Part shown: piece by piece, positions 18,701 through 53,896 of the stretch
Layout of the letters: every line of letters begins with the position of its first letter
How positions within the stretch are numbered: the stretch's first letter is position 1
Sequence record: LR999871
Origin: Escherichia phage vB_Eco_Jura
Length of the DNA: 64,000 nucleotides
Reading direction: 5' to 3' (one strand)
The notes under the pieces: generated by a model
Told to the model about the DNA's origin: nothing
Seen by the model: only the letters and a program-made list of their open reading frames with translations
Databases searched by the model: none
Translations under genes and position numbers: made by a program

Positions 18701-20273
18701 CATCACGAATAGTAACTTCTGCTTCTGGTGCTTGAGCCATAGCTTCTTGTGCTGCCTGTGCAACATAGTCATCAGCAACAGGAGATGCTTCTTCATTCTG
18801 CTTCATAACCCGTTCACCACGAGCTACCAAAGTGTTCTTAATAGGAGAAACAACCTTACCTGCTACACTACCAGCAGCTTTAACACCAGCCATTGTGGTA
18901 CGCAATACAGGAGCAGTTGCAGCACCTGCTAAACGAGCAGCACCAGCCGGAGCCTGTACAACACCAGCAGAACCAAAGCCATAAAGAGCACCTAAACCAG
19001 CTTGTGTACCGACACCTTTAAGCAGGTCTTGGTTCTTATCAATGTTTTGTTGCTGTGCAATATTCTGAGCCAGTTGGCCTGTAGCACCCTGAACACCTTC
19101 TTCCACTGTTTCACGGGCAAGGTTCATACCTACAGCACCTAAAGAACCAGCACGGAAAGGAGCCATCTCAAAACGAGATACTAGAGGACCAGTTGCAGCA
19201 GCAATAGGTAATTGAATAGCAGCAGCAGTAAGACCAGTTTCAGATGCAGTCTGACGACGAGCCTGTTCTGGAGACATACCATCTTTAATATGTTGTTGAT
19301 AAACAGGAGACTTCTCTAAGTCTTTAAGACTCATCTTCATAATTTCATCAGCAGTTTGTTGGTATGCACCACCAGCTTCCATTGCACCAACACCAACCAT
19401 ACCTGGTGCAGCTCTGCCTACAGTAGAAGCAATACGAGCCAGTGACTGAGTACCAGTACCTGCATCAATAGCACCAGCCAATGCAGCACTACGAAGAGTA
19501 TTTGCTGGAACAACTGCTTTACCCAGTAAAGATGCACCCCTTAATACAGGACCAGCACCTAATAGAGAACCTACCCCTTCTGCTAACCCATCAGAAATAA
19601 TAGAGTCAGTTTGAGCAGCGTTCTCAATTGAACCTACAAAATCACGTCCAAATTTAGATAAGGAAGCTACTATGTCATTAGTGCCTTCTTTCTTATCTGT
19701 TTGATACTGACGTTCACTCTCTACTTCACTCATTAAGTTACGAGCAGCAAAGAGCTTACGTTTATCTTGTAATGCTTGGCTTTGGGTAGCATGGACAGCA
19801 TCATTAAACTTACTCAATTGTTGAGCAATGACAGCACCTGCATCATCGTTGAGTAAGCCTGCTCCAAGAGCACCAATGCCCCCAAGGGTATTAACAAAAC
19901 CAAGACCAACACCAGTAGCAATATCCCCCAGTTCTTCCCCAGGAGTTCTTGTAGTAATCGAATCATTGAATACTTGGTTCCCTGCATCAGCACGAGCGTT
20001 GATAAGTTGTAAGCCTTGCTCAACACCATACTTATTCATGATTTGCATTGGAGTCAGATTCATAAAATCTGATTGCACTGTCCCTGGTTCAAATGCATTA
20101 GCCCCAACATTACCAGTACGGGCAGCTTGCATTTGATAAGCAGCATCAGGAGAAACAAGAGGAGTAGTGACACCTTGTTCAGCTTTCTTCTGGGCGGTTG
20201 CAGTAGAGACGTCAACTTGCTTTGCATTGGTTACGCTGTCTGCGAACCCAGCCAGTCTATCAAATACTGACAT
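9771..20273 (-). CDS. virion-encapsidated giant RNA polymerase (N4 vRNAP-type), 3500 aa
   Basis: Track start 20291 is TTG inside the SD; first ATG at 20273 follows AGGAAA, giving exactly 3500 aa. Central region has T7-like motifs: EADGVTNGP (motif A-like), RGIAKNPLTITIYGSG (motif B, R-x3-K-x8-YG), IFDGMN (possible motif C). Confidence 0.85.
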   Translation of the reverse strand: MSVFDRLAGFADSVTNAKQVDVSTATAQKKAEQGVTTPLVSPDAAYQMQAARTGNVGANAFEPGTVQSDFMNLTPMQIMNKYGVEQGLQLINARADAGNQVFNDSITTRTPGEELGDIATGVGLGFVNTLGGIGALGAGLLNDDAGAVIAQQLSKFNDAVHATQSQALQDKRKLFAARNLMSEVESERQYQTDKKEGTNDIVASLSKFGRDFVGSIENAAQTDSIISDGLAEGVGSLLGAGPVLRGASLLGKAVVPANTLRSAALAGAIDAGTGTQSLARIASTVGRAAPGMVGVGAMEAGGAYQQTADEIMKMSLKDLEKSPVYQQHIKDGMSPEQARRQTASETGLTAAAIQLPIAAATGPLVSRFEMAPFRAGSLGAVGMNLARETVEEGVQGATGQLAQNIAQQQNIDKNQDLLKGVGTQAGLGALYGFGSAGVVQAPAGAARLAGAATAPVLRTTMAGVKAAGSVAGKVVSPIKNTLVARGERVMKQNEEASPVADDYVAQAAQEAMAQAPEAEVTIRDAVEATDATPEQKVAAHQYVSDLMNATRFNPENYQEAPEHIRNAVAGSTDQVQVIQKLADLVNTLDESNPQALMEAASYMYDAVSEFEQFINRDPAALDSIPKDSPAIELLNRYTNLTANIQNTPKVIGALNVINRMINESAQNGSLDVTEESSPQEMQNVALAAEVAPEKLNPESVNVVLKHAADGRIKLNNRQIAALQNAAAILKGAREYDAEAARLGLRPQDIVSKQIKTDESRTQEGQYSALQHANRIRSAYNSGNFELASAYLNDFMQFAQHMQNKVGALNEHLVTGNADKNKSVHYQALTADREWVRSRTGLGVNPYDTKSVKFAQQVALEAKTVADIANALASAYPELKVSHIKVTPLDSRLNAPAAEVVKAFRQGNRDVASSQQKADSVNQVKETPVTKQEPVTSTVQTKTPVSEPVKTEPTTKESRPQAIKEPVSQSEKRDVNLTNEDNIKQPTESVKETETSAKESTVTEELKEGIDAVYPSLVGTADSKAEGIKNYFKLSFTLPEEQKSRTVGSEAPLKDVAQALSSRARYELFTEKDVANPAFNGEVIKRYKELMEHGEGIADILRSRLAKFLNTKDVGKRFAQGTEANRWVGGKLLNIVEQDGDTFKYNEQLLQTAVLAGLQWRLTATSNTAIKDAKDVAAITGIDQALLPEGLVEQFDTGMTLTEAVSSLAQKIESYWGLSRNPNAPLGYTKGIPTAMAAEILAAFVESTDVVENIVDMSEIDPDNKKTIGLYTITELDSFDPINSFPTAIEEAVLVNPTEKMFFGDDIPPVANTQLRNPAVRNTPEQKAALKAEQATEFYVHTPMVQFYETLGKDRILELMGAGTLNKELLNDNHAKSLEGKNRSVEDSYNQLFSVIEQVRAQSEDISTVPIHYAYNMTRVGRMQMLGKYNPQSAKLVREAILPTKATLDLSNQNNEDFSAFQLGLAQALDIKVHTMTREVMSDELTKLLEGNLKPAIDMMVEFNTTGSLPENAVDVLNTALGDRKSFVALMALMEYSRYLVAEDKSAFVTPLYVEADGVTNGPINAMMLMTGGLFTPDWIRNIAKGGLFIGSPNKTMNEHRSTADNNDLYQASTNALMESLGKLRSNYASNMPIQSQIDSLLSLMDLFLPDINLGENGALELKRGIAKNPLTITIYGSGARGIAGKLVSSVTDAIYERMSDVLKARAKDPNISAAMAMFGKQAASEAHAEELLARFLKDMETLTSTVPVKRKGVLELQSTGAGAKGKINPKTYTIKGEQLKALQENMLHFFVEPLRNGITQTVGESLVYSTEQLQKATQIQSVVLEDMFKQRVQEKLAEKAKDPTWKKGDFLTQKELNDIQASLNNLAPMIETGSQTFYIAGSENAEVANQVLATNLDDRMRVPMSIYAPAQAGVAGIPFMTIGTGDGMMMQTLSTMKGAPKNTLKIFDGMNIGLNDITDASRKANEAVYTSWQGNPIKNVYESYAKFMKNVDFSKLSPEALEAIGKSALEYDQRENATVDDIANAASLIERNLRNIALGVDIRHKVLNKVNLSIDQMAAVGAPYQNNGKIDLSNMTPEQQADELNKLFREELEARKQKVAKAKAEVKEEIVSEKEPVNPDFGMVGREHKASGVRILSATAIRNLAKISNLPSTQAATLAEIQKSLAAKDYKIIYGTPTQVAEYARQKNVTELTSQEMEEAQAGNIYGWTNFDDKTIYLVSPSMETLIHELVHASTFEEVYSFYQGNEVSPTSKQAIENLEGLMEQFRSLDISKDSPEMREAYVDAIATIEGHLSNGFVDPAISKAAALNEFMAWGLANRALAAKQKRTSSLVQMVKDVYQAIKKLIWGRKQAPALGEDMFSNLLFNSAILMRSQPTTQAVAKDGTLFHSKAYGNNERLSQLNQTFDKLVTDYLRTDPVTEVERRGNVANALMSATRLVRDVQSRGFNMTAQEQSVFQMVTAALATEAAIDPHAMARAQELYTHVMKHLTVEHFMADPDSTNPADRYYAQQKYDTISGANLVEVDAKGRTSLLPTFLGLAMVNEELRSIIKEMPVPKADKKLGNDVDTLLTNAGTQVMESLNRRMAGDQKATNVQDSIDALSETIMAAALKRESFYDAVATPTGNFIDRANQYVMDSIERLSETVIEKADKVIANPSNVAAKGVAHLAKLTAAIASEKQGEIVAQGVMTAMNQGKVWQPFHDLVNDIVGRTKTNANVYDLIKLVKSQISQDRQQFREHLPTVIAGKFSRKLTDTEWSAMHTGLGKTDLAVLRETMSMAEIRDLLSSSKKVKDEISTLEKEIQNQAGRNWNLVQKKSKQLAQYMITGEVGNNLLRNAHAISRLLGERITNSPVADVAAIDKLTTLYSLELMNKSDRDLLSELAQSEVEGMEFSIAYMVGQRTEEMRKAKGDNRTLLNHFKGYIPVENQQGVNLIIADDKEFAKLNSQSFTRIGTYQGSTGFRTGSKGYYFSPVAARAPYSQGILQNVRNTAGGVDIGTGFTLGTMVAGRITDKPTVERITKALAKGERGREPLMPIYNSKGQVVAYEQSVDPNMLKHLNQDNHFAKMVGVWRGRQVEEAKAQRFNDILIEQLHAMYEKDIKDSSANKSQYVNLLGKIDDPVLADAINLMNIETRRKAEELFGKDELWVRRDMLNDALGYRAASIGDVWTGNSRWSPSTLDTVKKMFLGAFGNKAYHVVMNAENTIQNLVKDAKTVIVVKSVVVPAVNFLANIYQMIGRGVPVKDIAVNIPRKTSEINQYIKSRLRQIDAEAELRAAEGNPNLVRKLKTEIQSITDSHRRMSIWPLIEAGEFSSIADAGISRDDLLVAEGKIHEYMEKLANKLPEKVRNAGRYALIAKDTALFQGIQKTVEYSDFIAKAIIYDDLVKRKKKSSSEALGQVTEEFVNYDRLPGRFRGYMESMGLMWFYNFKIRSIKVAMSMIRNNPVHSLIATVVPAPAMFGNVGLPIQDNMLTMLAEGRLDYSLGFGQGLRAPTLNPWFNLTH

Positions 20274-20336
20274 AGTAGGTTTCCTATACAAACTTATATC
20301 TATTAGAAATCACACTATACCTAGTGTAAGGACGAG

Positions 20337-35290: not shown

Positions 35291-41864
<6,574 letters not shown>

Positions 41865-45195: not shown

Positions 45196-45324
45196 ATGTG
45201 GTATATAACAGTTAAAGGTTTACCCGAACCAGTGATGATAGATAGCCTGGCATTCGTAGAAGTAGGTCATCCTATTCTTATAGAAGGTAAGTTGTATGAA
45301 GTTGTTAGTATTTATAAGAGATAA
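45196..45324 (+). CDS. candidate small protein (42 aa), absent from the ORF track
   Basis: ATG 4 nt after AAGGAAA; encodes MWYITVKGLPEPVMIDSLAFVEVGHPILIEGKLYEVVSIYKR. Confidence 0.4.
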   Translation: MWYITVKGLPEPVMIDSLAFVEVGHPILIEGKLYEVVSIYKR

Positions 45325-45432
45325 ATAGGAAGTCTATTAGATAGATACCCTATAATTTTTTCTTAGTGAAAATAGTCATAGTTACTTATGAGTTCAGTAT
45401 TTGGTGGGGCTACACCCCTTACACCATAAGCA

Positions 45433-45442
45433 CCCCCCCCCC
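45433..45442. repeat. poly(C) homopolymer tract (10 nt)
   Basis: Uninterrupted run of 10 C in the non-coding stretch 45325-45555, about 50 bp upstream of hairpin motif copy 1. Confidence 0.8.
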
Positions 45443-45491
45443 TGTCTTTACTAGTGTAGCCTTAGCCTACCCCACCTTGTACACGTTACAC

Positions 45492-45510
45492 GTTGCTTCG
45501 CAACTTATGG
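45492..45510 (+). promoter_or_regulatory. hairpin promoter candidate 1 (virion-RNAP type)
   Basis: GTTGC-TTC-GCAAC (5-bp stem, 3-nt loop) then CTTATGG; shares the 16-nt pattern GCT[CT]CGC-NN-CTT[TA]TGG with two other copies. 46 nt upstream of the ATG at 45556. Confidence 0.45.
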
Positions 45511-45555
45511 ACATGTTGTCCGTATCTTATCAATCAACTATTGGAGACTAATACT

Positions 45556-45882
45556 ATGACTACTCAGGCTAACGTTCGTATGACTGTAGGAACTCTGTTG
45601 GGTACTGTTAACGAAGCAGCAACTACTGTAGCTGATACATTCGGTACTGCTACTAAAGCAGTAGGTATGCTTAATCGTTATGTAACTAAACAAGCAGATA
45701 AACAAATCATTCGTGACAAATTAGAAATGCATGAGTTTACCAATAAACTTATTGAAGAAACTGCAATGCAAGAAGCTATTCGTCAGAAACAAATCTTAGA
45801 CTTCTGCAAAGATGAACAAAACAAAGAATTGTTCTCTAATGCCTATGACCGTCTTAGCAAAATCTTAGCAGACTCTAAATAA
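45556..45882 (+). CDS. early protein (108 aa), function unknown
   Basis: Track start 45493 is a TTG inside hairpin copy 1; first ATG at 45556 follows GGAG. Confidence 0.6.
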   Translation: MTTQANVRMTVGTLLGTVNEAATTVADTFGTATKAVGMLNRYVTKQADKQIIRDKLEMHEFTNKLIEETAMQEAIRQKQILDFCKDEQNKELFSNAYDRLSKILADSK

Positions 45883-45894
45883 TAACAAACAAAT

Positions 45895-45918
45895 GGAGGC
45901 TCCTCGGAGTCTCCTTTT
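45895..45918 (+). terminator. rho-independent terminator
   Basis: Stem GGAGGCTC/GAGTCTCC (one G-U) with loop CTCG, then TTTT; 13 nt after the 45882 stop. Confidence 0.5.
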
Positions 45919-45960
45919 ACATAGAACCGATAGTTCAATAACTATCTACTTTAAAGATAA

Positions 45961-45979
45961 GAAGCTCCGCTTCTTTTGG
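45961..45979 (+). promoter_or_regulatory. hairpin promoter candidate 2 (virion-RNAP type)
   Basis: GAAGC-TCC-GCTTC (5-bp stem, 3-nt loop) then CTTTTGG; core GCTCCGC-NN-CTTTTGG identical to copy 3. Confidence 0.45.
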
Positions 45980-46086
45980 ATGAAGTAATGCATCCAATCC
46001 TGTATGAAATCTTAACCTTTTGTCTGGGATTACTTACCGACAAAGTAGTCTCAACTAATCAAAATCAACTATCTGGAGAGTACAAA

Positions 46087-46473
46087 ATGGCTATCACTAC
46101 TTTTGCTAAAACCTTTGGTCAGGCTTCTACTAAAACCGAATCCAACAATGGTTCTCGTCCAAAAGCTCAGTTCTGGATTAACGTTGGCTATGTAGCTAAT
46201 GAAGGCACTGAAGATGAACGTTTCATCTCTCTGCCTACTGGTATTCCACTGGATACTCAGGAGCATCTGCCAACCAATTCCTCTAACGAAGACTTCCGTG
46301 CAATGCGTTGTGCACAGAACGATTTGTTAGACCAACTGATGGAATTTGCTAAGACTCTGGAACCGGGTCAAGAAGGAGTTATCTCACTGCAAGTTCAACT
46401 TCGTCGAGTTAAAGAAGAAGCTCCTGCTATCTCAGCAAGTGAGAATAAATATGCTCGTAAACTGACTTTCTAA
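46087..46473 (+). CDS. early protein (128 aa), function unknown
   Basis: Track start 45976 is the TTG inside the promoter motif; ATG at 46087 has a strong SD (GGAGAG, 7-nt spacing). An alternative ATG at 45988 has a weak SD. Confidence 0.55.
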
Positions 46474-46481
46474 TCTCTATA

Positions 46482-46506
46482 GGACTACCTTCGGGTAGTC
46501 CTTTTT
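46482..46506 (+). terminator. rho-independent terminator (UUCG tetraloop)
   Basis: Stem GGACTACC/GGTAGTCC, loop TTCG, then TTTTT; 9 nt after the 46473 stop. Confidence 0.7.
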
Positions 46507-46615
46507 AATTTTAACTATCTAAATACTAAAGTAGAGATTTTGACCCTTTTCGACGAAGGGATACTAAAAAGTAATGGATAGTTTGAGCAGATGTTTTAGA
46601 AGAAGGAGTATACAG

Positions 46616-46930
46616 ATGCATCCTCTTATAAAACGATTCCTGATGGACTATCAGGAGTGGTTAGATAATGGAGCCAGTGAACCTCATTACCTGTTTGATA
46701 GGGGTAGTGGACTGTGTGTTCAACTAGGCAAATATCTTAGAAGACAGCCAATCAGTGAAGAAACAGTAGATACTCTGTGTAAGAGCTTTACTCATTTACT
46801 TCCTGATAATGATACCAATCTACCATTCAATGTAGATGTTCTCGACTACATGATGGAATGTTCTGATGGAAGATGTCATCTGAACCAAAGTCGAATTAAT
46901 TGGATTAAGAGTCAGTTGGAGAGTAAGTAA
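46616..46930 (+). CDS. early protein (104 aa), function unknown
   Basis: Track ATG at 46574 has no SD; the in-frame ATG at 46616 follows AAGGAG. Confidence 0.55.
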   Translation: MHPLIKRFLMDYQEWLDNGASEPHYLFDRGSGLCVQLGKYLRRQPISEETVDTLCKSFTHLLPDNDTNLPFNVDVLDYMMECSDGRCHLNQSRINWIKSQLESK

Positions 46931-46933
46931 ATT

Positions 46934-47371
46934 ATGTCATATGAAATTGTAAAACATTGGACTTCTAAGGCTGGGCTGAAGGCTTGGGTATTGCTGGTAA
47001 ATGGTGGTAGCCATCATTGTGGTTATGTGGAAATACCAGAAGCATTACTGGATAAAAACTTCTATGACTATATATGTGATGATGAAGAAACACTTCATAT
47101 TACAGTACATGGTGGAGTTACCTATCAAGGTGTTCCTCAGTGGGCTGATGGGATTAAAGTCATAGGTTATGACTGTGCTCATGCAGGGGATAAACTGAAA
47201 TGTCCTAAACAATTCATTGGCTCTCTTAGGGAGAGACTCTATGAGGATTCTTATGGAGTATGGCGAGATGAAGAATACTGCATCAATGAATGTGAAAGCA
47301 TGGCAGACCAGTTAATTAACCTGATACCAAAATTAGGGTTTAACGATGAAATTCAGAACAGTAATGGTTAA
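46934..47371 (+). CDS. early protein (145 aa), His/Cys-rich, function unknown
   Basis: ATG-initiated; contains HHCGYV, VHGG, GYDCAHAGD, suggesting a metal site; no family recognised. Confidence 0.55.
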   Translation: MSYEIVKHWTSKAGLKAWVLLVNGGSHHCGYVEIPEALLDKNFYDYICDDEETLHITVHGGVTYQGVPQWADGIKVIGYDCAHAGDKLKCPKQFIGSLRERLYEDSYGVWRDEEYCINECESMADQLINLIPKLGFNDEIQNSNG

Positions 47372-47543
47372 TGCTCTTGATACCAGGGGTAATGAAATCA
47401 TTAGCTATAAAGTGCAAGGCTTTAAATGGTTCAAATGGAAAACATTAACTAGCTTTAAAGAATTTGAGAAAGATAAAGCTATTAAGTTAACCAAGAAATT
47501 GAACCAACGTAAGAAGATTAAATTAGTTACTGTAATTAAATAA
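47346..47543 (+). CDS. small basic protein candidate (65 aa)
   Basis: ATG inside the 3' end of the upstream gene in another frame; Lys-rich; no clear SD. Confidence 0.3.
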   Translation: MKFRTVMVNALDTRGNEIISYKVQGFKWFKWKTLTSFKEFEKDKAIKLTKKLNQRKKIKLVTVIK

Positions 47544-47553
47544 GGATAAGGCA

Positions 47554-47712
47554 ATGCGTAAATCACTAATCATGGGAACCAAAGAAGACGTTGCTAAGAT
47601 GAAAGCTAAACGTCAGATGAATAAAGCAGTAACGTTTGCAGAACGTTATAGTACGTCTGAACCAGTACGTCGTATTGTTACTTTCAACCATCCAGCTATT
47701 AAGGGTATGTAA
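47554..47712 (+). CDS. candidate small protein (52 aa), absent from the ORF track
   Basis: ATG 7 nt after AAGGA; MRKSLIMGTKEDVAKMKAKRQMNKAVTFAERYSTSEPVRRIVTFNHPAIKGM; its stop overlaps the next ATG (TAATG). Confidence 0.4.
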   Translation: MRKSLIMGTKEDVAKMKAKRQMNKAVTFAERYSTSEPVRRIVTFNHPAIKGM

Positions 47713-47921
47713 TGCAAACTAAAGATAAGAAAGACTTAGAACGTCTTCTCCGTGTATATGGTGATTATGCATTGTTAGCAGAGATAACTAATATTATCGA
47801 AGAAGACTGTCGTAACGGTTATGCCAATAACCCACAAGCAATAATTCATCGTGATGCAGTAGTGCTTAGAGAAGCAGTCAGTAAGATGCAAGCATTACAT
47901 CCATTAAGACAGCGAGCATAA
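47712..47921 (+). CDS. early protein (69 aa)
   Basis: ATG with TAATG overlap; followed by a GC hairpin and T-rich tract. Confidence 0.5.
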   Translation: MQTKDKKDLERLLRVYGDYALLAEITNIIEEDCRNGYANNPQAIIHRDAVVLREAVSKMQALHPLRQRA

Positions 47922-47925
47922 ATAG

Positions 47926-47956
47926 GAGGGGGCTACTAAGCCCTCTTCTTATTTTT
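47926..47956 (+). terminator. terminator candidate
   Basis: GC-rich stem GAGGG/CCCTC around a 10-nt loop, then TTCTTATTTTT. Confidence 0.4.
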
Positions 47957-47994
47957 ATCGTGGTTATTAAGCAACTATCTTAGAGGAAGGAATA

Positions 47995-48210
47995 ATGGAA
48001 CAGTTAAACTACGGTTATAAGATTAAACGCAATCAAGTAAGAGGTTCTTGGTTATTTCTCGTTTATGGTAAACCAATCTATGAATTACATCGTGGAGAGA
48101 AATCCAAGACCTATTACGTAACTCATATTGCTACAGGAAAAACTCCTGCATGTGCAGGATTGCTTCGTGATGCAATTATGAAAGCATGTATGTTAGAAGG
48201 ACTTCTATGA
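47995..48210 (+). CDS. early protein (71 aa)
   Basis: ATG preceded by GAGGAAGGA. Confidence 0.55.
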   Translation: MEQLNYGYKIKRNQVRGSWLFLVYGKPIYELHRGEKSKTYYVTHIATGKTPACAGLLRDAIMKACMLEGLL

Positions 48211-48521
48211 ACCAAATCATTGCTATCCCGCAGCATAAAGCTCGTATTGCTGACAGGAATATTCGTATTCATTATCCAATGCCTTTGAGTAATCCATTTC
48301 AGAAAAATGAGAGAACCACGGATGAAGATATAGCAGCAGCTTATGAGGCATATCTTCGTAACCGTTTGGTAAGTGGTGACAAGCTCATTACGGCTGAAAT
48401 GGAACGAATTGCTAAATTCGTTATAGATGATACTGACAAACCCGTTGGCCTCATTGGTAATGAACTGGAAGTGAATGTAATCCGTAAGATTATTATGGAG
48501 GCTCTTAATGGGAATCAGTGA
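48207..48521 (+). CDS. early protein (104 aa)
   Basis: Track start 48186 trimmed to the ATG at 48207, which follows AGAAGGA and overlaps the upstream stop (ATGA). Confidence 0.55.
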   Translation: MNQIIAIPQHKARIADRNIRIHYPMPLSNPFQKNERTTDEDIAAAYEAYLRNRLVSGDKLITAEMERIAKFVIDDTDKPVGLIGNELEVNVIRKIIMEALNGNQ

Positions 48522-48684
48522 ATCCCAGGCTATGGCTATTAAACAGTTAGCCTTCAACTGCCTTAGTGCTATGAAGGCATTTAATGAAGCAAAAACTTTC
48601 CCTGACCAGAATAAAGCTCGTATTCGACTTTATCAGTCTAAGAAAGATTTTGAAGAATATCTGGAAAGTATTACGGTGAAATAA
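48508..48684 (+). CDS. candidate small protein (58 aa), absent from the ORF track
   Basis: ATG 7 nt after GGAGG; fills the gap between annotated ORFs; stop overlaps the next ATG (TAATG). Confidence 0.45.
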   Translation: MGISESQAMAIKQLAFNCLSAMKAFNEAKTFPDQNKARIRLYQSKKDFEEYLESITVK

Positions 48685-49004
48685 TGAAAACAATATTAAT
48701 TGTTCATGATGCTGATTTTAATGATGTTGATAAAATGATGCGTAATATTGATTATGTAGCTCAGACAACTCCAGCATTTAAAGAAGAATTTACTCTATAT
48801 TGTGATGCTAATTCACCATTAGTTCCCATTCTGAAAGAAGCTGGTTTACCCTTCTCTACAGATAATTTCCCTGAAGAACCTGATTATGTAATTTCATTTA
48901 TTTATGACTTACATGATGGCTCAGAACCAAGTGAATTGACTATGAGTCAATGGAAATCCAGAAGACCTGTATATGCATTTCAGGTAGTTAAATCAAGGAG
49001 TTAA
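48684..49004 (+). CDS. early protein (106 aa)
   Basis: ATG in a TAATG overlap; no motif recognised. Confidence 0.55.
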   Translation: MKTILIVHDADFNDVDKMMRNIDYVAQTTPAFKEEFTLYCDANSPLVPILKEAGLPFSTDNFPEEPDYVISFIYDLHDGSEPSELTMSQWKSRRPVYAFQVVKSRS

Positions 49005-49006
49005 CT

Positions 49007-49375
49007 ATGTTAGGTGATAACACTAATGCTCTGTTTGGAGTGTCAGCCAGACCTATTATCATTGTTAATAAACATCATGGTAAAAAGGGTGAATATATTG
49101 GGCGTGGTTCTCCTCTGGGTAATCCATTCGTTATTGGTAAAGATGGAACCAGAGAAGAAGTAATTGCCAAATATAAAGTATGGCTACAAGAACAGATTGA
49201 TAAAGGTAATCCAGTTGTACTGGATGAATTAAATCGTCTTGGTAATAAAGCCATTGATGAAAAAGGATTAGCTTTACAGTGCTTCTGTTATCCAAAACCT
49301 TGTCATGGCGAGGTTATTAAAGAGAAGTTAGTAAAAGCTATGTATAACTACTTTGTGGAAAATCCTAATGGATAA
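49007..49375 (+). CDS. DUF4326-like protein (GNP motif), 122 aa
   Basis: ATG preceded by AAGGAG; YIGRGSPLGNPF ... QCFCYPKPCHGEV matches the DUF4326 hallmark as I recall it (Gly-Asn-Pro motif plus C-terminal Cys/His cluster). Confidence 0.5.
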   Translation: MLGDNTNALFGVSARPIIIVNKHHGKKGEYIGRGSPLGNPFVIGKDGTREEVIAKYKVWLQEQIDKGNPVVLDELNRLGNKAIDEKGLALQCFCYPKPCHGEVIKEKLVKAMYNYFVENPNG

Positions 49376-49553
49376 ACAATGCAAATGTGGTAAAGGCTAT
49401 GTATCCCAATGGGATGGTAAATGTGGTCATTGTAGAACCAAGAAAGAACAACGTGACCATGAATATGCACTTCAGGAAATGATTGTACCTGTTGAGAATT
49501 TAGGTATGGCTCCACTTGAGGCTTACAAATACATAAGGAGATTATGCAAATGA
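49368..49553 (+). CDS. small zinc-ribbon protein (61 aa)
   Basis: Track TTG start trimmed to the ATG at 49368; MDKQCKCGKGYVSQWDGKCGHCRTKK has a C-x-C ... C-x2-C arrangement. Confidence 0.45.
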   Translation: MDKQCKCGKGYVSQWDGKCGHCRTKKEQRDHEYALQEMIVPVENLGMAPLEAYKYIRRLCK

Positions 49554-49930
49554 AAGAAGTATTCGTATTTGGTTCTAACCTTGCTGGTGTACATGGTGCA
49601 GGTGCTGCAAAGACAGCATATAAGAAACATGGAGCCAGATGGGGTAAAGGGCATGGTCATTATGGTGACAGCTACGCTATTCCCACTAAAGATACCAATA
49701 TCAAAACGATGACTATTGAAGACATTCGTACATTTGTAAACGCCTTCATTGTCTATGCTGCTAATCATCCAGAACTTAACTTTAAAGTTACTCGTGTAGG
49801 TTGTGGATTAGCTGGTATTGATGATTCTGTTATGGCCTCTATGTTTGAAAATGCCACTGATAACTGTTCCTTTGACTTAGCATGGAAAAGTTACTTAGGG
49901 GATGATTTCAACTACTGGGGAACGTTCTAA
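49544..49930 (+). CDS. hypothetical protein with N-terminal glycine-rich loop (128 aa)
   Basis: ATG preceded by AGGAG; N-terminus VFVFGSNLAGVHGAGAAKTA...GDSYAIPTK looks like a beta-strand plus Gly-rich nucleotide-binding loop; family not resolved. Confidence 0.5.
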   Translation: MQMKEVFVFGSNLAGVHGAGAAKTAYKKHGARWGKGHGHYGDSYAIPTKDTNIKTMTIEDIRTFVNAFIVYAANHPELNFKVTRVGCGLAGIDDSVMASMFENATDNCSFDLAWKSYLGDDFNYWGTF

Positions 49931-49947
49931 CTCATACGTTAGGCAAT

Positions 49948-49968
49948 AAGCTGCTCCGCAGCTTTTGG
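49948..49968 (+). promoter_or_regulatory. hairpin promoter candidate 3 (virion-RNAP type), upstream of the RNAP subunit genes
   Basis: AAGCTGC-TCC-GCAGCTT (7-bp stem, 3-nt loop) then TTGG; core GCTCCGC-AG-CTTTTGG; 37 nt before the ATG at 50005. Confidence 0.45.
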
Positions 49969-50004
49969 TAATTAATATGTTTAACCAATTTTGGAGAATA
50001 TGCG

Positions 50005-50817
50005 ATGTCTACTATCGAACATCAGATGCACCTCGAAAAGCTGTACAACAAGAACCAACTGTTACCAAGAATGCGTCAGGAGTTTGAAGAAAACTCTGGT
50101 ATTGATTTCAAAGCCTTCTTTGCACATATAGGCATTGATTACAAATTTGGCATTGATGCAATGGTTCAAATGGCTCTGCATAAGCGAGCTGACCTACCAA
50201 CATTAGTTGGTACATTGCGTCATCATTGCAAATCTGCACAGGAAGTAGCAGACAACCTTTTTAAGATGGCAAGTGAGGATTGCTTTAACTTTGACCCGAC
50301 CATCGACAAGTTCATTGTCATTTATACAATCAGCGATGACGTACAGCATGAACTGGATTCATTTCAATATCCACTACCTATGGTAGTACGTCCTAAGCTG
50401 TTAACTAAGAATTATGGTACTGGGTACTTCACATGTAATAAGAGTGTGATTCTTAAGAAGAACCATACTGACGATGACATCTGCTTAGACCATCTGAACC
50501 GTATGAACAAGATTCCATTGTCTATCAATTGGGATGTAGCTCATATGGTTAAAAATGAATGGGCTAATCTGGATAAACCGAAAGAAGGTGAAACTCGTCA
50601 GGAGTTTGAAAAACGTGTACGTGCATTCCAGAAATATGACCGTACTGCACATGAAGTAATGGGTTTATTGACCCAGGAAGGCAATAAGTTCTATCTGACT
50701 CATCGTCCGGATAAACGTGGTCGTACCTATTGCCAAGGTTATCATGTAACATACCAGGGAACTTCTTGGTGTAAAGCCGTGATTGAACTTGCTGATAAGG
50801 AACTTATCAATGATTAA
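50005..50817 (+). CDS. phage RNA polymerase, small (N-terminal-type) subunit, 270 aa
   Basis: ATG preceded by GGAGAA. Assigned from its pairing with the catalytic-subunit gene downstream and the 270/404-aa sizes I recall for the N4 two-subunit enzyme; no catalytic motif expected here. Confidence 0.55.
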   Translation: MSTIEHQMHLEKLYNKNQLLPRMRQEFEENSGIDFKAFFAHIGIDYKFGIDAMVQMALHKRADLPTLVGTLRHHCKSAQEVADNLFKMASEDCFNFDPTIDKFIVIYTISDDVQHELDSFQYPLPMVVRPKLLTKNYGTGYFTCNKSVILKKNHTDDDICLDHLNRMNKIPLSINWDVAHMVKNEWANLDKPKEGETRQEFEKRVRAFQKYDRTAHEVMGLLTQEGNKFYLTHRPDKRGRTYCQGYHVTYQGTSWCKAVIELADKELIND

Positions 50818-51319
50818 AGACAGAATGCCTATGGGTTACTGGAACAAACCAATAGAAGAATTAGCAATAGCTCACCCAAAAGAAGCTGCTAATAGTGCTA
50901 GTGGTTACATACGTATATCCAGAAACAATAGGATTCATTATTTACATCGTTGGTTGTGGGAACAAAAACATGGTGCTATCCCTGCTGGACACACCATTGA
51001 CCATCTTAATGGAATCCGGACTGATTGCCGTTGGGAAAACATGCGTTGTATCCCTTGGGCAATTAACTTACGTAATAGTACAAAGCGTGCTGATAACACG
51101 TCAGGAGTAACAGGTGTCTCACTATGGAAATCTCCAAAAGGAGTGTTCTGGAGAGCAACTTGTACTGACAACTTAACAGGAAAACAACGATGTAAGGTGT
51201 TTTCCATAAATAAATACGGTTACAACTTTGCATTTGAATTAGCATGTGATGCTCGTGCCGATATGATTGAACGCCTGAACCAACAAGGTGCAGGTTATAC
51301 CGACCGTCACGGTCAATAA
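50810..51319 (+). CDS. HNH homing endonuclease with AP2-like DNA-binding domain
   Basis: Track start 50783 trimmed to the ATG at 50810 (after AAGGA, overlapping the upstream stop). HNH core GHTIDHLNGIRTDCRWENMRCIPWAINLRN; C-terminal SGVTGVSLWKSPKGVFWRA is AP2-like. Confidence 0.75.
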   Translation: MIKDRMPMGYWNKPIEELAIAHPKEAANSASGYIRISRNNRIHYLHRWLWEQKHGAIPAGHTIDHLNGIRTDCRWENMRCIPWAINLRNSTKRADNTSGVTGVSLWKSPKGVFWRATCTDNLTGKQRCKVFSINKYGYNFAFELACDARADMIERLNQQGAGYTDRHGQ

Positions 51320-51331
51320 TCCCTATAAGCA

Positions 51332-51352
51332 GGCTCTCCATAGTGGGGAGCC
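51332..51352 (+). other. 8-bp hairpin in the RNA leader of the catalytic RNAP subunit gene
   Basis: GGCTCTCC/GGGGAGCC (one G-U) with loop ATAGT, followed by an A/G-rich SD region rather than a T tract. Confidence 0.4.
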
Positions 51353-51373
51353 AAGAAGCAAGAGGAATATACA

Positions 51374-52588
51374 ATGCAAACTTTTACTGCCCGTGAATAT
51401 CTGAAAATTGACATTGCTAATAACTATGGTCTGGATAAAGAAGACTGGGATGACCGTATTGCATGGTTCGATAAGAATGAGAACAACCTGCTGAACCTTG
51501 TAAGAGAAGCTGAAGAACCAGCCCTGTTCTATGCTGGTGTTAAAGCATGGATGGACGTTAAGGAAGGTAAGCCAATTGGTTATCCTGTTGCACTGGATGC
51601 TACATCATCTGGTCTACAGATTCTGGCTTGCCTGACTGGTGACCGTAGAGCTGCTGAACTATGTAACGTTGTTAACTATCGTGATGAAAGTGGCAAAGTT
51701 AAACGTCGTGATGCTTATACAGTTATCTACAACAAGATGCTGAACACTCTTGGTAAAGGTGCTCGTATCAAACGTAATGACTGTAAACAAGCAATCATGA
51801 CTGCTCTGTATGGTTCAGAGGCTAAACCAAAGGAAGTATTTGGTGAAGGCATTATGCTCAACGTATTTGAAAGCACAATGAATGTGGAAGCACCTGCTGT
51901 ATGGGAATTGAATAAATTCTGGTTACAGTGTGGTAATCCAGAGGCTTTCGTATATCACTGGGTAATGCCAGATGGCTTTAACGTATATATCAAAGTAATG
52001 GTAAATGAAGTGGAGACTGTCCACTTCTTAGATAAGCCGTATGACTGTGTTCGTAAAGTACAAGGTACTGAAGAGAAGACTCGTATGCTATCTGCCAATA
52101 CCACCCACTCTATTGATGGCCTAGTAGTACGTGAGCTGGTTCGTCGTTGTGACTATGACAAGAACCAGATTGAATACATCAAGGCTCTTTGCAATGGTGA
52201 AGCTGAATATAAGACTTCTGAAAAGAACTATGGCAAAGCAATGGAACTGTGGGGCTACTATGAGAAGACAGGATTCCTGACTGCTCGTATCTTTGATTAT
52301 CTGGATTCTGAAACTATTAAATTAGTAAATACTCAGGACATTCTAGACCTGATTGAATCCATGCCTAAGAAACCATTCCATGTACTCACTGTACATGACT
52401 GCTTCCGTTGCCTGCCTAACTATGGCAATGACATTCGTCGTCAGTACAACAACCTGTTAGCTACTATTGCTAAAGGTGACTTACTATCTTTCATTATGAG
52501 CCAGGTTCTAGGCCAAGAAGTTACTATTGGCAAACTAGACCCGACTCTATGGGAAGATGTATTAGAAACCGAATACGCTCTATCTTAA
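51374..52588 (+). CDS. phage RNA polymerase, catalytic subunit (T7-like palm), 404 aa
   Basis: ATG preceded by AGAGGAA. T7 RNAP-type motifs in order: PVALDATSSGLQ (motif A, D...SG-Q), RNDCKQAIMTALYGS (motif B, R-x3-K-x7-YG), VHDCF (motif C). Confidence 0.8.
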   Translation: MQTFTAREYLKIDIANNYGLDKEDWDDRIAWFDKNENNLLNLVREAEEPALFYAGVKAWMDVKEGKPIGYPVALDATSSGLQILACLTGDRRAAELCNVVNYRDESGKVKRRDAYTVIYNKMLNTLGKGARIKRNDCKQAIMTALYGSEAKPKEVFGEGIMLNVFESTMNVEAPAVWELNKFWLQCGNPEAFVYHWVMPDGFNVYIKVMVNEVETVHFLDKPYDCVRKVQGTEEKTRMLSANTTHSIDGLVVRELVRRCDYDKNQIEYIKALCNGEAEYKTSEKNYGKAMELWGYYEKTGFLTARIFDYLDSETIKLVNTQDILDLIESMPKKPFHVLTVHDCFRCLPNYGNDIRRQYNNLLATIAKGDLLSFIMSQVLGQEVTIGKLDPTLWEDVLETEYALS

Positions 52589-52594
52589 TAACTA

Positions 52595-52627
52595 AGGCTA
52601 TCCCTACGGGGGTAGCCTTTATTTTTT
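52595..52627 (+). terminator. strong rho-independent terminator after the RNAP genes
   Basis: 10-bp stem AGGCTATCCC/GGGGGTAGCCT (one G-U), loop TACG, then TTATTTTTTT. Confidence 0.7.
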
Positions 52628-52672
52628 TAGTAAATCATAATGGATAGGCATTTAACCTATGAGGAAATTAAA

Positions 52673-53512
52673 ATGCCTGTTCTTAAAGTGATGTTCCATA
52701 AAGACACCAACGTAGCTACTGTACTGGATGCCAGTGGTAGCCTTAGTGATGGTTCCGTTGAGGTGGGTACTTTCCATCATCCTGATGAAACCTATCCCGA
52801 TAGTGTAACTATCTATCATGGTGTACGTGACCTGCTGTATAAACGCAGTGCTAAAGACCCATCTCAAACTGCTTCTTACCCAAATAACATTATCAATATG
52901 CAAGTTATCAGTATTGATATGAAGGCAACTCCTCGCCTGATTTTGGGTACTGCATTGCCTCGTGTAATCTCTACTATTGAAGGTAAAGATGTAACCTGGC
53001 ATGTAGATGTTGCTGGTGGTAAAGCACCATTGACTTACAAGTGGCAGTTTAAAGCTAATACTGTAGGTGCTGCTTTCGCTGATATTGATTCCGGAGAGAA
53101 TCCTACAGCTAAAACTGCAACTCTTATTAATCATGCAGTAACTGCTGAATCTGCTGGTACTTATAAAGTCATCGTTACTGATGCTAACGGTACTACTATC
53201 GAGAGTTCTTCTCTGCTGGTTGTAGGAGTTCAGGAACCACCTGAAGTAGCTTCTATTGTTGCTTATCCAAGTCCACTGGCTCTATCAGTAGCTGATGATA
53301 TTACCAATGGTAAAACAGTTAAGTTTTCTTCCCTGCCTGCTGGCTCTTTGATTGGTACTCTGTCCATTAAGACCCAGCCTGACAGTGGTAAAGCTACTGC
53401 TGAGATTAGTGGTAATGTACTGACAGTTAAACCTGTAGCCGCAGGTGACACTACTGTAGTGGTCACCAACGGAACCAAGGAAGTAACTGTTACGGTTAAT
53501 GTTACAGAGTAA
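52673..53512 (+). CDS. Ig-like domain protein, capsid decoration candidate (279 aa)
   Basis: Track ATG at 52640 has no SD; ATG at 52673 follows GAGGAAA. Thr/Val/Ser-rich beta-strand pattern (VTAESAGTYKVIVTDANGTT; VTNGTKEVTVTVNVTE) typical of Ig-like (BIG2-type) domains. Confidence 0.6.
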   Translation: MPVLKVMFHKDTNVATVLDASGSLSDGSVEVGTFHHPDETYPDSVTIYHGVRDLLYKRSAKDPSQTASYPNNIINMQVISIDMKATPRLILGTALPRVISTIEGKDVTWHVDVAGGKAPLTYKWQFKANTVGAAFADIDSGENPTAKTATLINHAVTAESAGTYKVIVTDANGTTIESSSLLVVGVQEPPEVASIVAYPSPLALSVADDITNGKTVKFSSLPAGSLIGTLSIKTQPDSGKATAEISGNVLTVKPVAAGDTTVVVTNGTKEVTVTVNVTE

Positions 53513-53533
53513 TGTGATTGTTTTTATGAATGT

Positions 53534-53556
53534 AGCCCTCCTTGTGAGGGCTTTTT
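53534..53556 (+). terminator. rho-independent terminator
   Basis: Stem AGCCCTC/GAGGGCT, loop CTTGT, then TTTT. Confidence 0.65.
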
Positions 53557-53581
53557 AGTATCTATAGGAGAGTAAATAATT

Positions 53582-53896
53582 ATGGCTAATAAGAACCGTC
53601 TTCGTGTATGGCATATCCCTCAAGTACCCGGCAAAGCCTTCTATGTTGAAGTAGATTCAGTAGAAGAAGGTGTACGTATCATTGATATACTAGCCAACTA
53701 TGACCTATTCCAGTATGAGAACAATATCAAAGGTGATTACTGCAATGTCTCTGGTTTACAGATGTATGATGAACATATCACTGATGATGAAATGGAAGAG
53801 ATGGGTCTGACTGACCGTTGGGTAGACTGGTACTATGAAGATGACCAGAGCTTTTTTGATAACCCGAAAGAGTATTTGAATAATCTCAAGAAGTAA
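53582..53896 (+). CDS. acidic protein (104 aa), function unknown
   Basis: ATG preceded by AGGAGAG; Asp/Glu/Tyr-rich C-terminus. Confidence 0.6.
   Translation: MANKNRLRVWHIPQVPGKAFYVEVDSVEEGVRIIDILANYDLFQYENNIKGDYCNVSGLQMYDEHITDDEMEEMGLTDRWVDWYYEDDQSFFDNPKEYLNNLKK

What the first reader, a model, noticed from the sequence alone, without database searches (positions are those of the whole stretch)
49948..50005. Third hairpin motif copy sits directly in front of the two-subunit RNA polymerase genes
The 7-bp-stem copy lies 37 nt upstream of the first RNAP subunit gene. That wiring would have the injected virion RNAP transcribe the genes for the middle-phase polymerase, giving a self-contained cascade independent of host sigma factors.
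Basis: inference. Interest (0 to 1): 0.6.

Follow-up and report, generated by a model that had tools for sequence, protein, structure and literature searches.

The report
Known phage N4 early promoter P3
The hairpin is real, but it is base-for-base the well-studied third early promoter (P3) of coliphage N4, which the injected virion RNA polymerase uses to transcribe the genes for the phage's second RNA polymerase, so the finding is correct and already textbook knowledge.

Summary
The window is a circularly permuted genome of a phage 98-99% identical to coliphage N4. The N4 left end lies at about window 45403.

At 49948-49964 (+) sits a perfect 7-bp-stem, 3-nt-loop hairpin, AAGCTGC-TCC-GCAGCTT, followed by TT and GG. 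It is identical to N4 4546-4562.

**It matches every published promoter determinant.** On the template (-) strand it has the GGA loop, -11G, -10G, -12A, -9C:-13G closing pair, -8G, the AAAA spacer, and +1C/+2C. The predicted start is G49967, 38 nt before the gp15 ATG at 50005.

**It is far from chance.** Exactly three sites in 64 kb on both strands fit the rule (loop centres 45498, 45967, 49956). Shuffles give 0.0155 on average. N4 itself has the same three, matching the three mapped promoters P1-P3 in its leftmost 10%.

**It is conserved.** All eight Enquatrovirinae relatives checked keep the hairpin upstream of the RNAPII small-subunit gene, with compensatory stem changes.

**The cascade reading is correct and long published.** It overstates host independence: promoter use needs host gyrase and SSB, and late genes need host sigma-70 RNA polymerase.

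The only new item is incidental. An HNH-AP2 homing endonuclease gene is inserted between gp15 and gp16, inside the P3 operon.

Verdict: already known; low interest.

The parts
49948..49964 (+). Early promoter P3 hairpin: inverted repeat AAGCTGC / GCAGCTT around loop TCC. The functional hairpin forms on the template (-) strand, which reads AAGCTGC-GGA-GCAGCTT; it covers template positions -3 to -19.
   Evidence: Identical to N4 EF056009 4546-4562. One of only three sites in the window that fit the rule.
49963..49966 (+). TTTT run, which is template AAAA at -4 to -1. This is the 'molecular ruler' between the recognised stem and the start site. The first two T are also the outer two stem pairs.
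   Evidence: Sequence. The role of the four A's is described for P2 in PMC4496689. The same CCAAAAG layout is in the published P2 oligo.
49967..49968 (+). Predicted transcription start: GG, which is template +1C and +2C. It lies 11 nt 3' of the loop centre at 49956.
   Evidence: Spacing rule from PMC4496689 and the P2 oligo. GG at this spacing is invariant in all 12 aligned promoters. The start is inferred here, not measured.
49993..49996 (+). GGAG ribosome-binding site, 8 nt before the gp15 ATG.
   Evidence: Sequence. Conserved in the relatives' leaders.
50005..50817 (+). gp15 / RNAP1, the small subunit of the heterodimeric middle RNA polymerase (RNAPII).
   Evidence: 97% amino-acid identity to N4 RNAP1. 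N4 annotation.
50810..51319 (+). Inserted HNH_3 + AP2 homing-endonuclease gene inside the P3 operon. It is absent from N4.
   Evidence: Pfam PF13392 at 8e-17 and an AP2 match below the curated cut-off. Insertion boundaries against N4. Relatives sit at the same junction in Gamaleyavirus UE-M3.
51374..52588 (+). gp16 / RNAP2, the large catalytic subunit of RNAPII.
   Evidence: Pfam RNA_pol PF00940 at 3.6e-14. About 98% nucleotide identity to the N4 region annotated RNAP2.
52594..52619 (+). Intrinsic-terminator-like hairpin (11 bp, tetraloop) followed by TATTTTTTT. This is the likely 3' end of the P3 transcription unit.
   Evidence: RNA fold -19.8 kcal/mol, z = -4.5. Its function is inferred.
45492..45510 (+). 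Early promoter P1: GTTGC-TTC-GCAAC, then TTAT, then GG (+1 at 45509). It lies upstream of gp1.
   Evidence: The same site is in N4 with its centre at 96.
45959..45979 (+). Early promoter P2: AAGAAGC-TCC-GCTTCTT, then TT, then GG (+1 at 45978). It lies upstream of gp2.
   Evidence: Matches the core of the published P2 oligo, CCAAAAGAAGCGGAGCTTC. N4 centre at 565.
9771..20291 (-). Virion RNA polymerase (gp50 homologue, about 3500 aa), the enzyme that reads the hairpin promoters.
   Evidence: Its polymerase domain is near-identical to N4 mini-vRNAP in PDB 3q0a/2po4 and full-length 9pnr. The promoter-contact residues K114, R119, W129, K267, K268, K849, K850, D901 and R904 are all present.

Best explanation
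The element is the N4 early promoter P3, and the mechanism is the one established for N4.

1. The left end of the linear genome enters the cell together with the virion RNA polymerase (vRNAP, encoded at 9771-20291 on the - strand).
2. [quoted passage not shown] This extrudes the small hairpin on the template (-) strand at 49948-49964, and E. coli SSB stabilises that template-strand hairpin.
3. vRNAP binds the hairpin through base-specific contacts to the GGA loop (-10G, -11G), to -9C and to -8G in the stem, and melts the two outer A:T pairs. The four template A's act as a spacer.
4. vRNAP initiates with GTP opposite template C at 49967.
5. The transcript carries a 38-nt leader with a GGAG ribosome-binding site. 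It runs through gp15 (50005-50817), the HNH homing-endonuclease gene inserted in this isolate (50810-51319), and gp16 (51374-52588), to the intrinsic-type terminator at 52594-52619.
6. gp15 and gp16 assemble into RNAPII, which with gp1 and gp2 (made from P1 and P2) transcribes the middle genes.

Shown here: sequence identity to N4, fit to all published determinants, non-random occurrence, conservation with covariation, and identity of the flanking genes and of vRNAP.

Taken from the literature: the mechanism and the existence of three mapped promoters.

Inferred: that this particular site is the one named P3 (by elimination), the exact +1, and the 3' end of the transcription unit.
For: 1. The window is 98.2% identical to N4 and 99.1% to N4-type phages over 49000-53000. 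The gp14-gp15 intergenic region, hairpin included, is identical to N4 4478-4620 apart from one base inside gp14.

2. The template strand reads 5'-CCAAAAGCTGCGGAGCAGCTT-3'. This is the same layout as the published P2 template oligo...CCAAAAGAAGCGGAGCTTC... (PMC13492108). It satisfies the published determinants: -11A/G, -10G, -8G, +1C, the loop-closing G:C pair, the loop's 5'G and 3'A, and a start 8 nt downstream of -8 (PMC4496689).

3. Exactly three sites fit the rule in the window (shuffle mean 0.0155; 0 of 2000 shuffles with more than one site). The same three occur in N4 1-11409, at 96, 565 and 4554. N4 position 4565 is 6.5% of 70,153 bp. [quoted passage not shown]

4. The literature states that vRNAP transcribes gp15 and gp16 (PMC13434306; PMC4496689).

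5. All eight Enquatrovirinae relatives examined carry the hairpin upstream of the RNAP1 gene: U1G, EC1-UPM, PhAPEC5, Bp4, PGN829.1, G7C, KP8 and BaqKoxi. In seven it is 27-30 nt before the ATG. In KP8 one small ORF intervenes, and the site is annotated 'early promoter' in the record (PMC6950046).

6. Across 12 promoters, the two variable stem pairs show only compensatory changes (4 and 3 pair types, none unpaired). The three contacted pairs, the loop and the GG are invariant or nearly so. The covariation score is 0.465 against 0.123 in shuffles (0 of 500 as high).

7. The window's vRNAP retains every promoter-contacting residue.

8. No sigma-70-like promoter was called in this intergenic region.
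Against: 1. I could not read the primary mapping papers (Haynes & Rothman-Denes 1985; Glucksmann et al. 1992; Willis et al. 2002, PMC135322) because they are not held. The GenBank N4 record annotates no promoters. The equation 'this site = the published P3' therefore rests on elimination (three reported, three found) and on the consensus description, not on a printed P3 sequence.

2. No transcript 5' ends are available for this isolate.

3. The sequences used for covariation were found by a scan that required a perfect inner stem. Pairing of the inner pairs is therefore partly by construction.

4. More distant schitoviruses (JWAlpha, Axy11, Ea9-2, Zuri, HN02, Piffle) have no such hairpin within 700 nt upstream of the RNAP1 gene. 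A dedicated promoter at this position is not universal in the family.
Confidence: 0.95

Rival explanations
1. The hairpin mainly acts at the RNA level as an intrinsic terminator or attenuator. It would stop transcripts coming from the upstream genes gp8-gp14 before they enter the RNAPII genes.
For: Transcribed from upstream, the sequence gives a 7-bp RNA hairpin (-10.6 kcal/mol) whose 3' arm runs into UUUU. It lies directly after the gp14 stop codon.
Against: - The terminator scan did not call it, yet it called five much stronger hairpins on the same strand.
- Its RNA fold is only z = -1.8, against -4.3 and -4.5 for the neighbouring terminators. Its U-run is 4 nt, two of them inside the stem.
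- A terminator role does not explain the invariant loop TCC, the invariant GC...GC, or the invariant GG at a fixed 11-nt spacing.
- It also does not explain the presence of the same motif upstream of gp1 at the genome end, where nothing can be terminated.

A minor secondary attenuating effect is not excluded.
Confidence: 0.03
2. It is a palindromic operator for a dimeric DNA-binding protein, phage or host, that regulates gp15/gp16 expression from another promoter.
For: It is a 17-bp near-perfect inverted repeat in an intergenic region just upstream of a gene.
Against: - Stem positions covary to keep pairing rather than to keep sequence, which is not how operators evolve.
- The conserved parts are asymmetric: the loop TCC and a downstream TTNTGG on one side only.
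- No sigma-70-type promoter overlaps it.
- The published biochemistry accounts fully for the motif.
Confidence: 0.01
3. It is a chance inverted repeat with no function.
For: Short hairpins are common: there are 119 hairpins with a 3-nt loop and a stem of at least 5 bp per strand in the window.
Against: Only three sites carry the full determinant set, against 0.0155 expected. The site is conserved at the orthologous position in eight relatives whose gp15 is 64-74% identical in amino-acid sequence.
Confidence: 0.01

Closest known systems
Coliphage N4 early promoter P3 (vRNAP hairpin promoter; Haynes & Rothman-Denes 1985 and Glucksmann et al. 1992, as cited in PMC4496689)
   Same: The hairpin, spacer, start site and leader are identical base for base to N4 4546-4602. 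The position is the same, directly upstream of gp15/RNAP1, at 6.5% of the genome. The cognate vRNAP is the same, with all contact residues present.
   Different: Nothing differs in the promoter itself. Downstream, this isolate carries a roughly 0.5-kb HNH homing-endonuclease insertion between gp15 and gp16, which N4 lacks. The predicted P3 transcript is therefore about 2.66 kb instead of about 2.15 kb.
N4 early promoters P1 and P2 (the same phage; window 45492-45510 and 45959-45979)
   Same: They share the architecture and invariants: GC-TYC-GC heptamer, at least a 5-bp stem, TTNT spacer and GG start. They are read by the same enzyme.
   Different: P1 has a GAA loop on the template (-11A) and a 5-bp stem. 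GGA-loop promoters are reported to bind mini-vRNAP with high affinity, KD about 2 nM (PMC13037366). P2 and P3 share the GGA loop and a 7-bp stem but differ at the two variable stem pairs. P1 and P2 drive the RNAPII cofactor genes gp1 and gp2; P3 drives the RNAPII subunits.
Predicted or annotated vRNAP promoters of other Enquatrovirinae (KP8 P1-P4, PMC6950046; G7C and other Gamaleyavirus)
   Same: The consensus is the same, and one copy sits ahead of the RNAP1 gene.
   Different: Stem sequences differ by compensatory changes (CTG/CAG, CAG/CTG, GTG/CAC) and stem length ranges from 5 to 7 bp. In KP8 a small ORF lies between the promoter and RNAP1, and four promoters are predicted rather than three.
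Pseudomonas phage LUZ7 early promoters (ONT-cappable-seq, PMC9163698)
   Same: They are hairpin promoters with a 3-nt loop used by an injected vRNAP, they prefer a G start, and RNAPII is among the early gene products.
   Different: Nine early start sites were mapped, stems are 4 bp or longer, and the start lies 13-14 nt from the hairpin centre rather than 11. The strongest promoters drive Drc, the cofactor, rather than the polymerase subunits.

Membership tests
N4 vRNAP early (hairpin) promoter | Template-strand hairpin with a 5-7 bp stem and a 3-nt loop | tested here: met
   Perfect 7-bp stem with a 3-nt loop. The DNA fold of the template strand is -7.3 kcal/mol, z = -3.0.
N4 vRNAP early (hairpin) promoter | Loop 5'-G(-10) R(-11) A(-12)-3' on the template strand, with a purine at -11 (G for high affinity) | tested here: met
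   The template loop is GGA (the + strand reads TCC). The requirement is described in PMC4496689 and PMC13037366.
N4 vRNAP early (hairpin) promoter | Loop-closing -9C:-13G pair and -8G in the stem (specificity-loop contacts) | tested here: met
   The template reads ...G(-8)C(-9)-GGA-G(-13)C(-14)... These positions are invariant in all 12 aligned promoters.
N4 vRNAP early (hairpin) promoter | +1C on the template, 8 nt downstream of -8 (11 nt from the loop centre), preceded by an A-rich spacer | tested here: met
   The template has AAAA at -4 to -1 and CC at +1/+2, which places +1 at window 49967. The layout is the same as the published P2 oligo.
N4 vRNAP early (hairpin) promoter | Located in the first-injected left end of the genome (leftmost roughly 10%), directing rightward transcription of early genes | tested here: met
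   The site corresponds to N4 4546-4565 of 70,153 bp, or 6.5%. It is on the same strand as gp1-gp16.
N4 vRNAP early (hairpin) promoter | The cognate vRNAP, with its promoter-recognition residues, is encoded by the same genome | tested here: met
   The ORF at 9771-20291 (-) has a polymerase domain near-identical to N4 mini-vRNAP. K114, R119, W129, K267, K268, K849, K850, D901 and R904 are all present.
N4 vRNAP early (hairpin) promoter | Rifampicin-resistant initiation at the site in vivo, and on single-stranded template in vitro | not testable with these tools
   This is published for N4's three promoters (cited in PMC4496689). There are no data for this isolate, and the primary papers are not held.
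N4 vRNAP early (hairpin) promoter | Dependence on supercoiling (host gyrase) and E. coli SSB for hairpin extrusion and stabilisation | not testable with these tools
   Literature only (PMC4496689).
Rho-independent (intrinsic) terminator | A stable GC-rich RNA hairpin followed immediately by a U-tract of roughly 5 or more | tested here: not met
   The consensus scan did not call it. The U-run is 4 nt and overlaps the stem. The RNA fold has z = -1.8, against -4.3 and -4.5 for neighbouring terminators.

The most novel reading that the evidence does not exclude
The P3 hairpin could be bifunctional. As DNA it is the vRNAP promoter. As RNA (7-bp stem plus UUUU), in transcripts reading through from P2 and gp8-gp14, it could act as a weak attenuator. 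That would insulate the RNAPII operon so that its dosage is set by P3 alone. The shared TTTT 'ruler' of all vRNAP promoters would then have a second function. Nothing here supports this beyond the shape of the sequence.
Probability: 0.08. Interest if true: 0.35.

Novelty: already known. Interest (0 to 1): 0.08.

Why it matters
It matters little as a discovery. The hairpin-promoter mechanism and the vRNAP-to-RNAPII cascade of N4 have been worked out genetically, biochemically and structurally over four decades, and this site is identical to the N4 one.

Its practical value is for annotation. It lets P1, P2 and P3, their start sites (45509, 45978, 49967) and the P3 operon boundaries be placed on this genome.

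The comparative result has modest interest for how early-gene wiring evolves in Schitoviridae. A dedicated hairpin promoter before the RNAPII genes was found in every Enquatrovirinae phage checked, but in none of the six more distant schitoviruses checked, at least in the form scanned for.

Tried and rejected
1. **Primary papers.** I tried to read those that print the P1-P3 sequences or the gp15/16 region: PMC2639713, PMC1855362, PMC135322 and PMC317147. None is held.

2. **Full-text sequence search.** Searching for the hairpin sequence found only the KP8 paper and an unrelated paper.

3. **N4 transcript-start maps.** Text searches for an N4 map of transcription start sites found none; only LUZ7 has one.

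4. **GenBank features.** The N4 record carries no promoter features.

5. **Relatives from viral contigs.** The search for related loci with gp15 returned only three loci. I collected relatives through tblastn against the phage collection instead.

6. **Locus L018 (K57alpha1.2).** The gene annotation of this record was not usable for locating the RNAPII genes, so I dropped it.

7. **The 3-mismatch palindrome at 36158-36174 (AAGCTGTTTAGCAGCTT).** It lacks the GC...GC heptamer and sits inside the long ORF 35291-39439 (- strand). I treated it as chance.

8. **GCTCCGC at 27119-27125 (-).** It has the heptamer but no stem and is not a promoter candidate.

9. **Sigma-70 promoter in the gp14-gp15 spacer.** None was called.

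10. **RNAPII (middle) promoter in the AT-rich leader.** I know its consensus only from memory and did not test it, so I make no claim about it.

Full report
**What the window is.** A megablast of 49000-53000 against the phage collection gives 98.2% identity to Escherichia phage N4 (EF056009 / NC_008720). It gives up to 99.1% identity to N4-type isolates such as vB_Eco_SPSP and vB_Eco_AL25. The coordinates are offset by 45,402 from N4, so the window is a circularly permuted copy whose N4 left end lies at about 45403. A gp50-like ORF of about 3500 aa lies at 9771-20291 on the - strand. Its polymerase domain is almost identical to the crystallised N4 mini-vRNAP.

**The observation.** 49948-49964 reads AAGCTGC-TCC-GCAGCTT, a perfect 7-bp stem with a 3-nt loop, followed by TT and then GG at 49967-49968.
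- The stop codon of gp14 ends at 49930, and the ATG of the next gene is at 50005.
- As single-stranded DNA both strands fold into the hairpin: template strand -7.3 kcal/mol (z = -3.0), non-template strand -8.4 kcal/mol (z = -3.3).
- The downstream ORF 50005-50817 is 97% identical to N4 RNAP1/gp15.
- ORF 51374-52588 hits Pfam RNA_pol and aligns to the N4 region annotated RNAP2/gp16.

**Is it more than chance?** I took the promoter rule from the literature before scanning:
- a template hairpin of at least 5 bp with a 3-nt loop;
- a purine at -11;
- -10G, -8G and the closing -9C:-13G pair;
- +1C on the template, 11 nt from the loop centre (PMC4496689).

On the non-template strand this reads GC-T[C/T]C-GC inside a stem of at least 5 bp, with G at +11. 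The whole window, both strands, contains exactly three such sites, with centres at 45498, 45967 and 49956. All are on the + strand within 4.5 kb, and each sits in front of a gene. In 2000 dinucleotide-preserving shuffles the mean was 0.0155, and no shuffle gave more than one site.

**What it is.** The gp14-gp15 intergenic region is identical to N4 4478-4620 apart from one base inside gp14. On the template (-) strand the site reads 5'-CCAAAAGCTGCGGAGCAGCTT-3'. The P2 template oligonucleotide used for the 2026 cryo-EM structure reads ...CCAAAAGAAGCGGAGCTTC... (PMC13492108). The two share the same CC start, the same four A's, the same GC-GGA-GC core and the same register.

Numbering from that register gives +1C at 49967, -8G, -9C, -10G, -11G, -12A and -13G. 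Every position that vRNAP is reported to contact or require is present. The GGA loop is the type reported to bind mini-vRNAP with high affinity (PMC13037366).

The literature reports three vRNAP start sites, P1-P3, within the leftmost 10% (or about 8 kb) of N4. They are conserved from -17 to +1, with a GC-rich heptamer centred at -11 flanked by inverted repeats. N4 1-11409 contains exactly three sites that fit, at 96, 565 and 4554. The one at 565 matches the core of the published P2 oligo. The one at 96 has the GAA loop and precedes gp1. The remaining site, 6.5% into the genome, is the homologue of the site under review. By elimination it is P3. I could not read the primary papers to see the P3 sequence in print, and this is the one gap in the identification.

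**How it works.** This is the published N4 mechanism, applied here.
1. The left end of the genome enters first, together with vRNAP.
2. Host gyrase supercoils the DNA and the hairpin extrudes.
3. E. coli SSB melts the non-template hairpin but leaves the template hairpin in place.
4. vRNAP binds the template hairpin through W129 and R119 (-11G), K114 (-10G), D901 and R904 (-9C/-10G and -8G) and K849/K850 (phosphate backbone between -12 and -13). It melts the two outer pairs of a 7-bp stem with K267/K268.
5. It starts 8 nt downstream of -8.

All of these residues are present in the window's vRNAP.

The predicted transcript starts at G49967 and has a 38-nt leader with GGAG 8 nt before the ATG. 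There is no terminator-like element until the strong hairpin plus T-run at 52594-52619 (RNA fold -19.8 kcal/mol). The P3 unit therefore covers gp15, the inserted endonuclease gene and gp16. That vRNAP transcribes gp15 and gp16, and that these form the heterodimeric RNAPII which transcribes the middle genes with gp1 and gp2, is stated in PMC4496689 and PMC13434306.

**Comparative evidence.** I fetched the region upstream of the RNAP1 homologue from 14 other schitoviruses.

All eight Enquatrovirinae carry a hairpin with the TCC loop, the GC...GC heptamer and GG at +11/+12 upstream of the gene. These were Gamaleyavirus U1G, EC1-UPM, PhAPEC5, Bp4, PGN829.1 and G7C, Kaypoctavirus KP8, and BaqKoxi. 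In seven of them it lies 27-30 nt before the ATG. In KP8 a small ORF intervenes, the record annotates the site as 'early promoter', and the paper lists it as P4.

The stems differ by compensatory changes: N4 GCTGC/GCAGC, KP8 GCAGC/GCTGC, G7C GGTGC/GCACC. In an alignment of 12 promoters, the two variable pairs show 4 and 3 pair types with no unpaired cell. The three contacted pairs never vary. The covariation score is 0.465, against 0.123 in shuffles (0 of 500 as high) and at most 0.135 in slid registers. This mirrors the published finding that non-conserved stem bases only need to pair. One caveat applies: the sequences were found by a scan that required a perfect inner stem, so pairing is partly by construction.

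Six more distant phages have no such hairpin within 700 nt of the gene: JWAlpha, Axy11, Ea9-2, Zuri, HN02 and Piffle. JWAlpha-type genomes do have one at the extreme left end, GACGC-TCC-GCGTC then ttNtGG. A dedicated promoter in front of the RNAPII genes therefore looks like a feature of Enquatrovirinae rather than of the whole family.

**Rivals.**
- *Terminator or attenuator.* This reading is weak. The scan did not call the hairpin, the RNA fold is -10.6 kcal/mol (z = -1.8), and only four U's follow. The loop and GG invariants, and the copy at the genome end, are unexplained by termination.
- *Double-stranded operator.* This is contradicted by stem covariation and by the asymmetry of the conserved bases.
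- *Chance.* This is excluded.

Both the observation and the interpretation are right, including the predicted start at about 49967. The interpretation re-derives known N4 biology. The phrase 'self-contained' and 'independent of host sigma factors' is accurate for the early and middle stages only. Promoter activation needs host gyrase and SSB, and late transcription uses host sigma-70 RNA polymerase with N4SSB. The proposed rifampicin and time-course tests correspond to what is already published for N4: RNA synthesis right after infection persists with host RNAP inhibited by rifampicin, and most later phage transcription needs early gene products.

**Incidental.** Compared with N4 and the other 14 Enquatrovirus records, the window carries about 0.5 kb extra between gp15 and gp16; all of those records align over only 86% of the query. 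The insert encodes an HNH_3 + AP2 homing endonuclease. Its likely ATG at 50810 overlaps the gp15 stop codon. The last roughly 60 nt of gp15 are recoded relative to N4. The closest relatives, at 77.5% amino-acid identity, sit at the same RNAP1/RNAP2 junction in Gamaleyavirus UE-M3, UE-S5a and UE-M6. A 58.7% relative lies next to RNAP1 in Burkholderia phage HN03, and G7C and PGN829.1 carry an HNH gene annotated as ORF 15.1 at the same junction.

**Verdict.** This is a real feature, correctly read and already known (N4 early promoter P3). Interest is low.

Noticed in passing
window 50810-51319 (+); ORF listed as 50783-51319: An HNH_3 + AP2 homing-endonuclease gene is inserted between the two RNAPII subunit genes, inside the P3 operon. 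It is absent from N4 and from all 15 N4-genus records in the phage collection. The closest relatives (77.5% aa) occupy the same gp15/gp16 junction in Gamaleyavirus UE-M3, UE-S5a and UE-M6. A 58.7% relative lies next to RNAP1 in Burkholderia phage HN03, and G7C and PGN829.1 carry an HNH gene (ORF 15.1) at the same junction. The split point of the heterodimeric polymerase looks like a recurrent homing site.
   Followed up: partly
window about 50758-50817 (+): The last roughly 60 nt of gp15 are heavily recoded relative to N4 while the protein changes little (QGTSWCKAVIELADKELIND against QGTSWNKAVLEFAEKEVID). This is what co-conversion or target-site change next to a homing-endonuclease insertion would produce.
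   Followed up: partly
window 45895-45914, 46481-46502, 47924-47949, 52594-52619, 53534-53552 (+): Five strong intrinsic-terminator-like hairpins with T-runs punctuate the early region on the + strand, after gp1, gp2, gp7, gp16 and gp17. Twelve were found on both strands of 45300-53600, against 4.6 expected. They probably define the early transcription units. None lies between gp7 and P3, so the source of gp8-gp14 transcription (read-through or middle promoters) was not resolved.
   Followed up: no
L003 51-73 and L004 77-99 (JWAlpha-type Achromobacter phages): These distant schitoviruses keep an N4-type hairpin (GACGC-TCC-GCGTC, then ttNtGG) at the extreme left end of the genome. They have none within 700 nt upstream of their RNAPII small-subunit gene. 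The promoter consensus is therefore conserved more widely than the P3 position.
   Followed up: partly
window 45978-45990 (+): The predicted P2 start (45978) lies only 10 nt before the gp2 ATG (45988, from the N4 annotation), so this leader has very little room for a ribosome-binding site. A short ATG-AAG-TAA mini-ORF lies at 45980-45988. The mechanical ORF list instead starts this gene at TTG 45976, upstream of the transcript start.
   Followed up: no
window 45435-45446 (+): A run of about 11 C residues (caccccccccccctg) lies about 35 nt inside the N4 left end, within the region of the terminal repeat and just upstream of P1.
   Followed up: no
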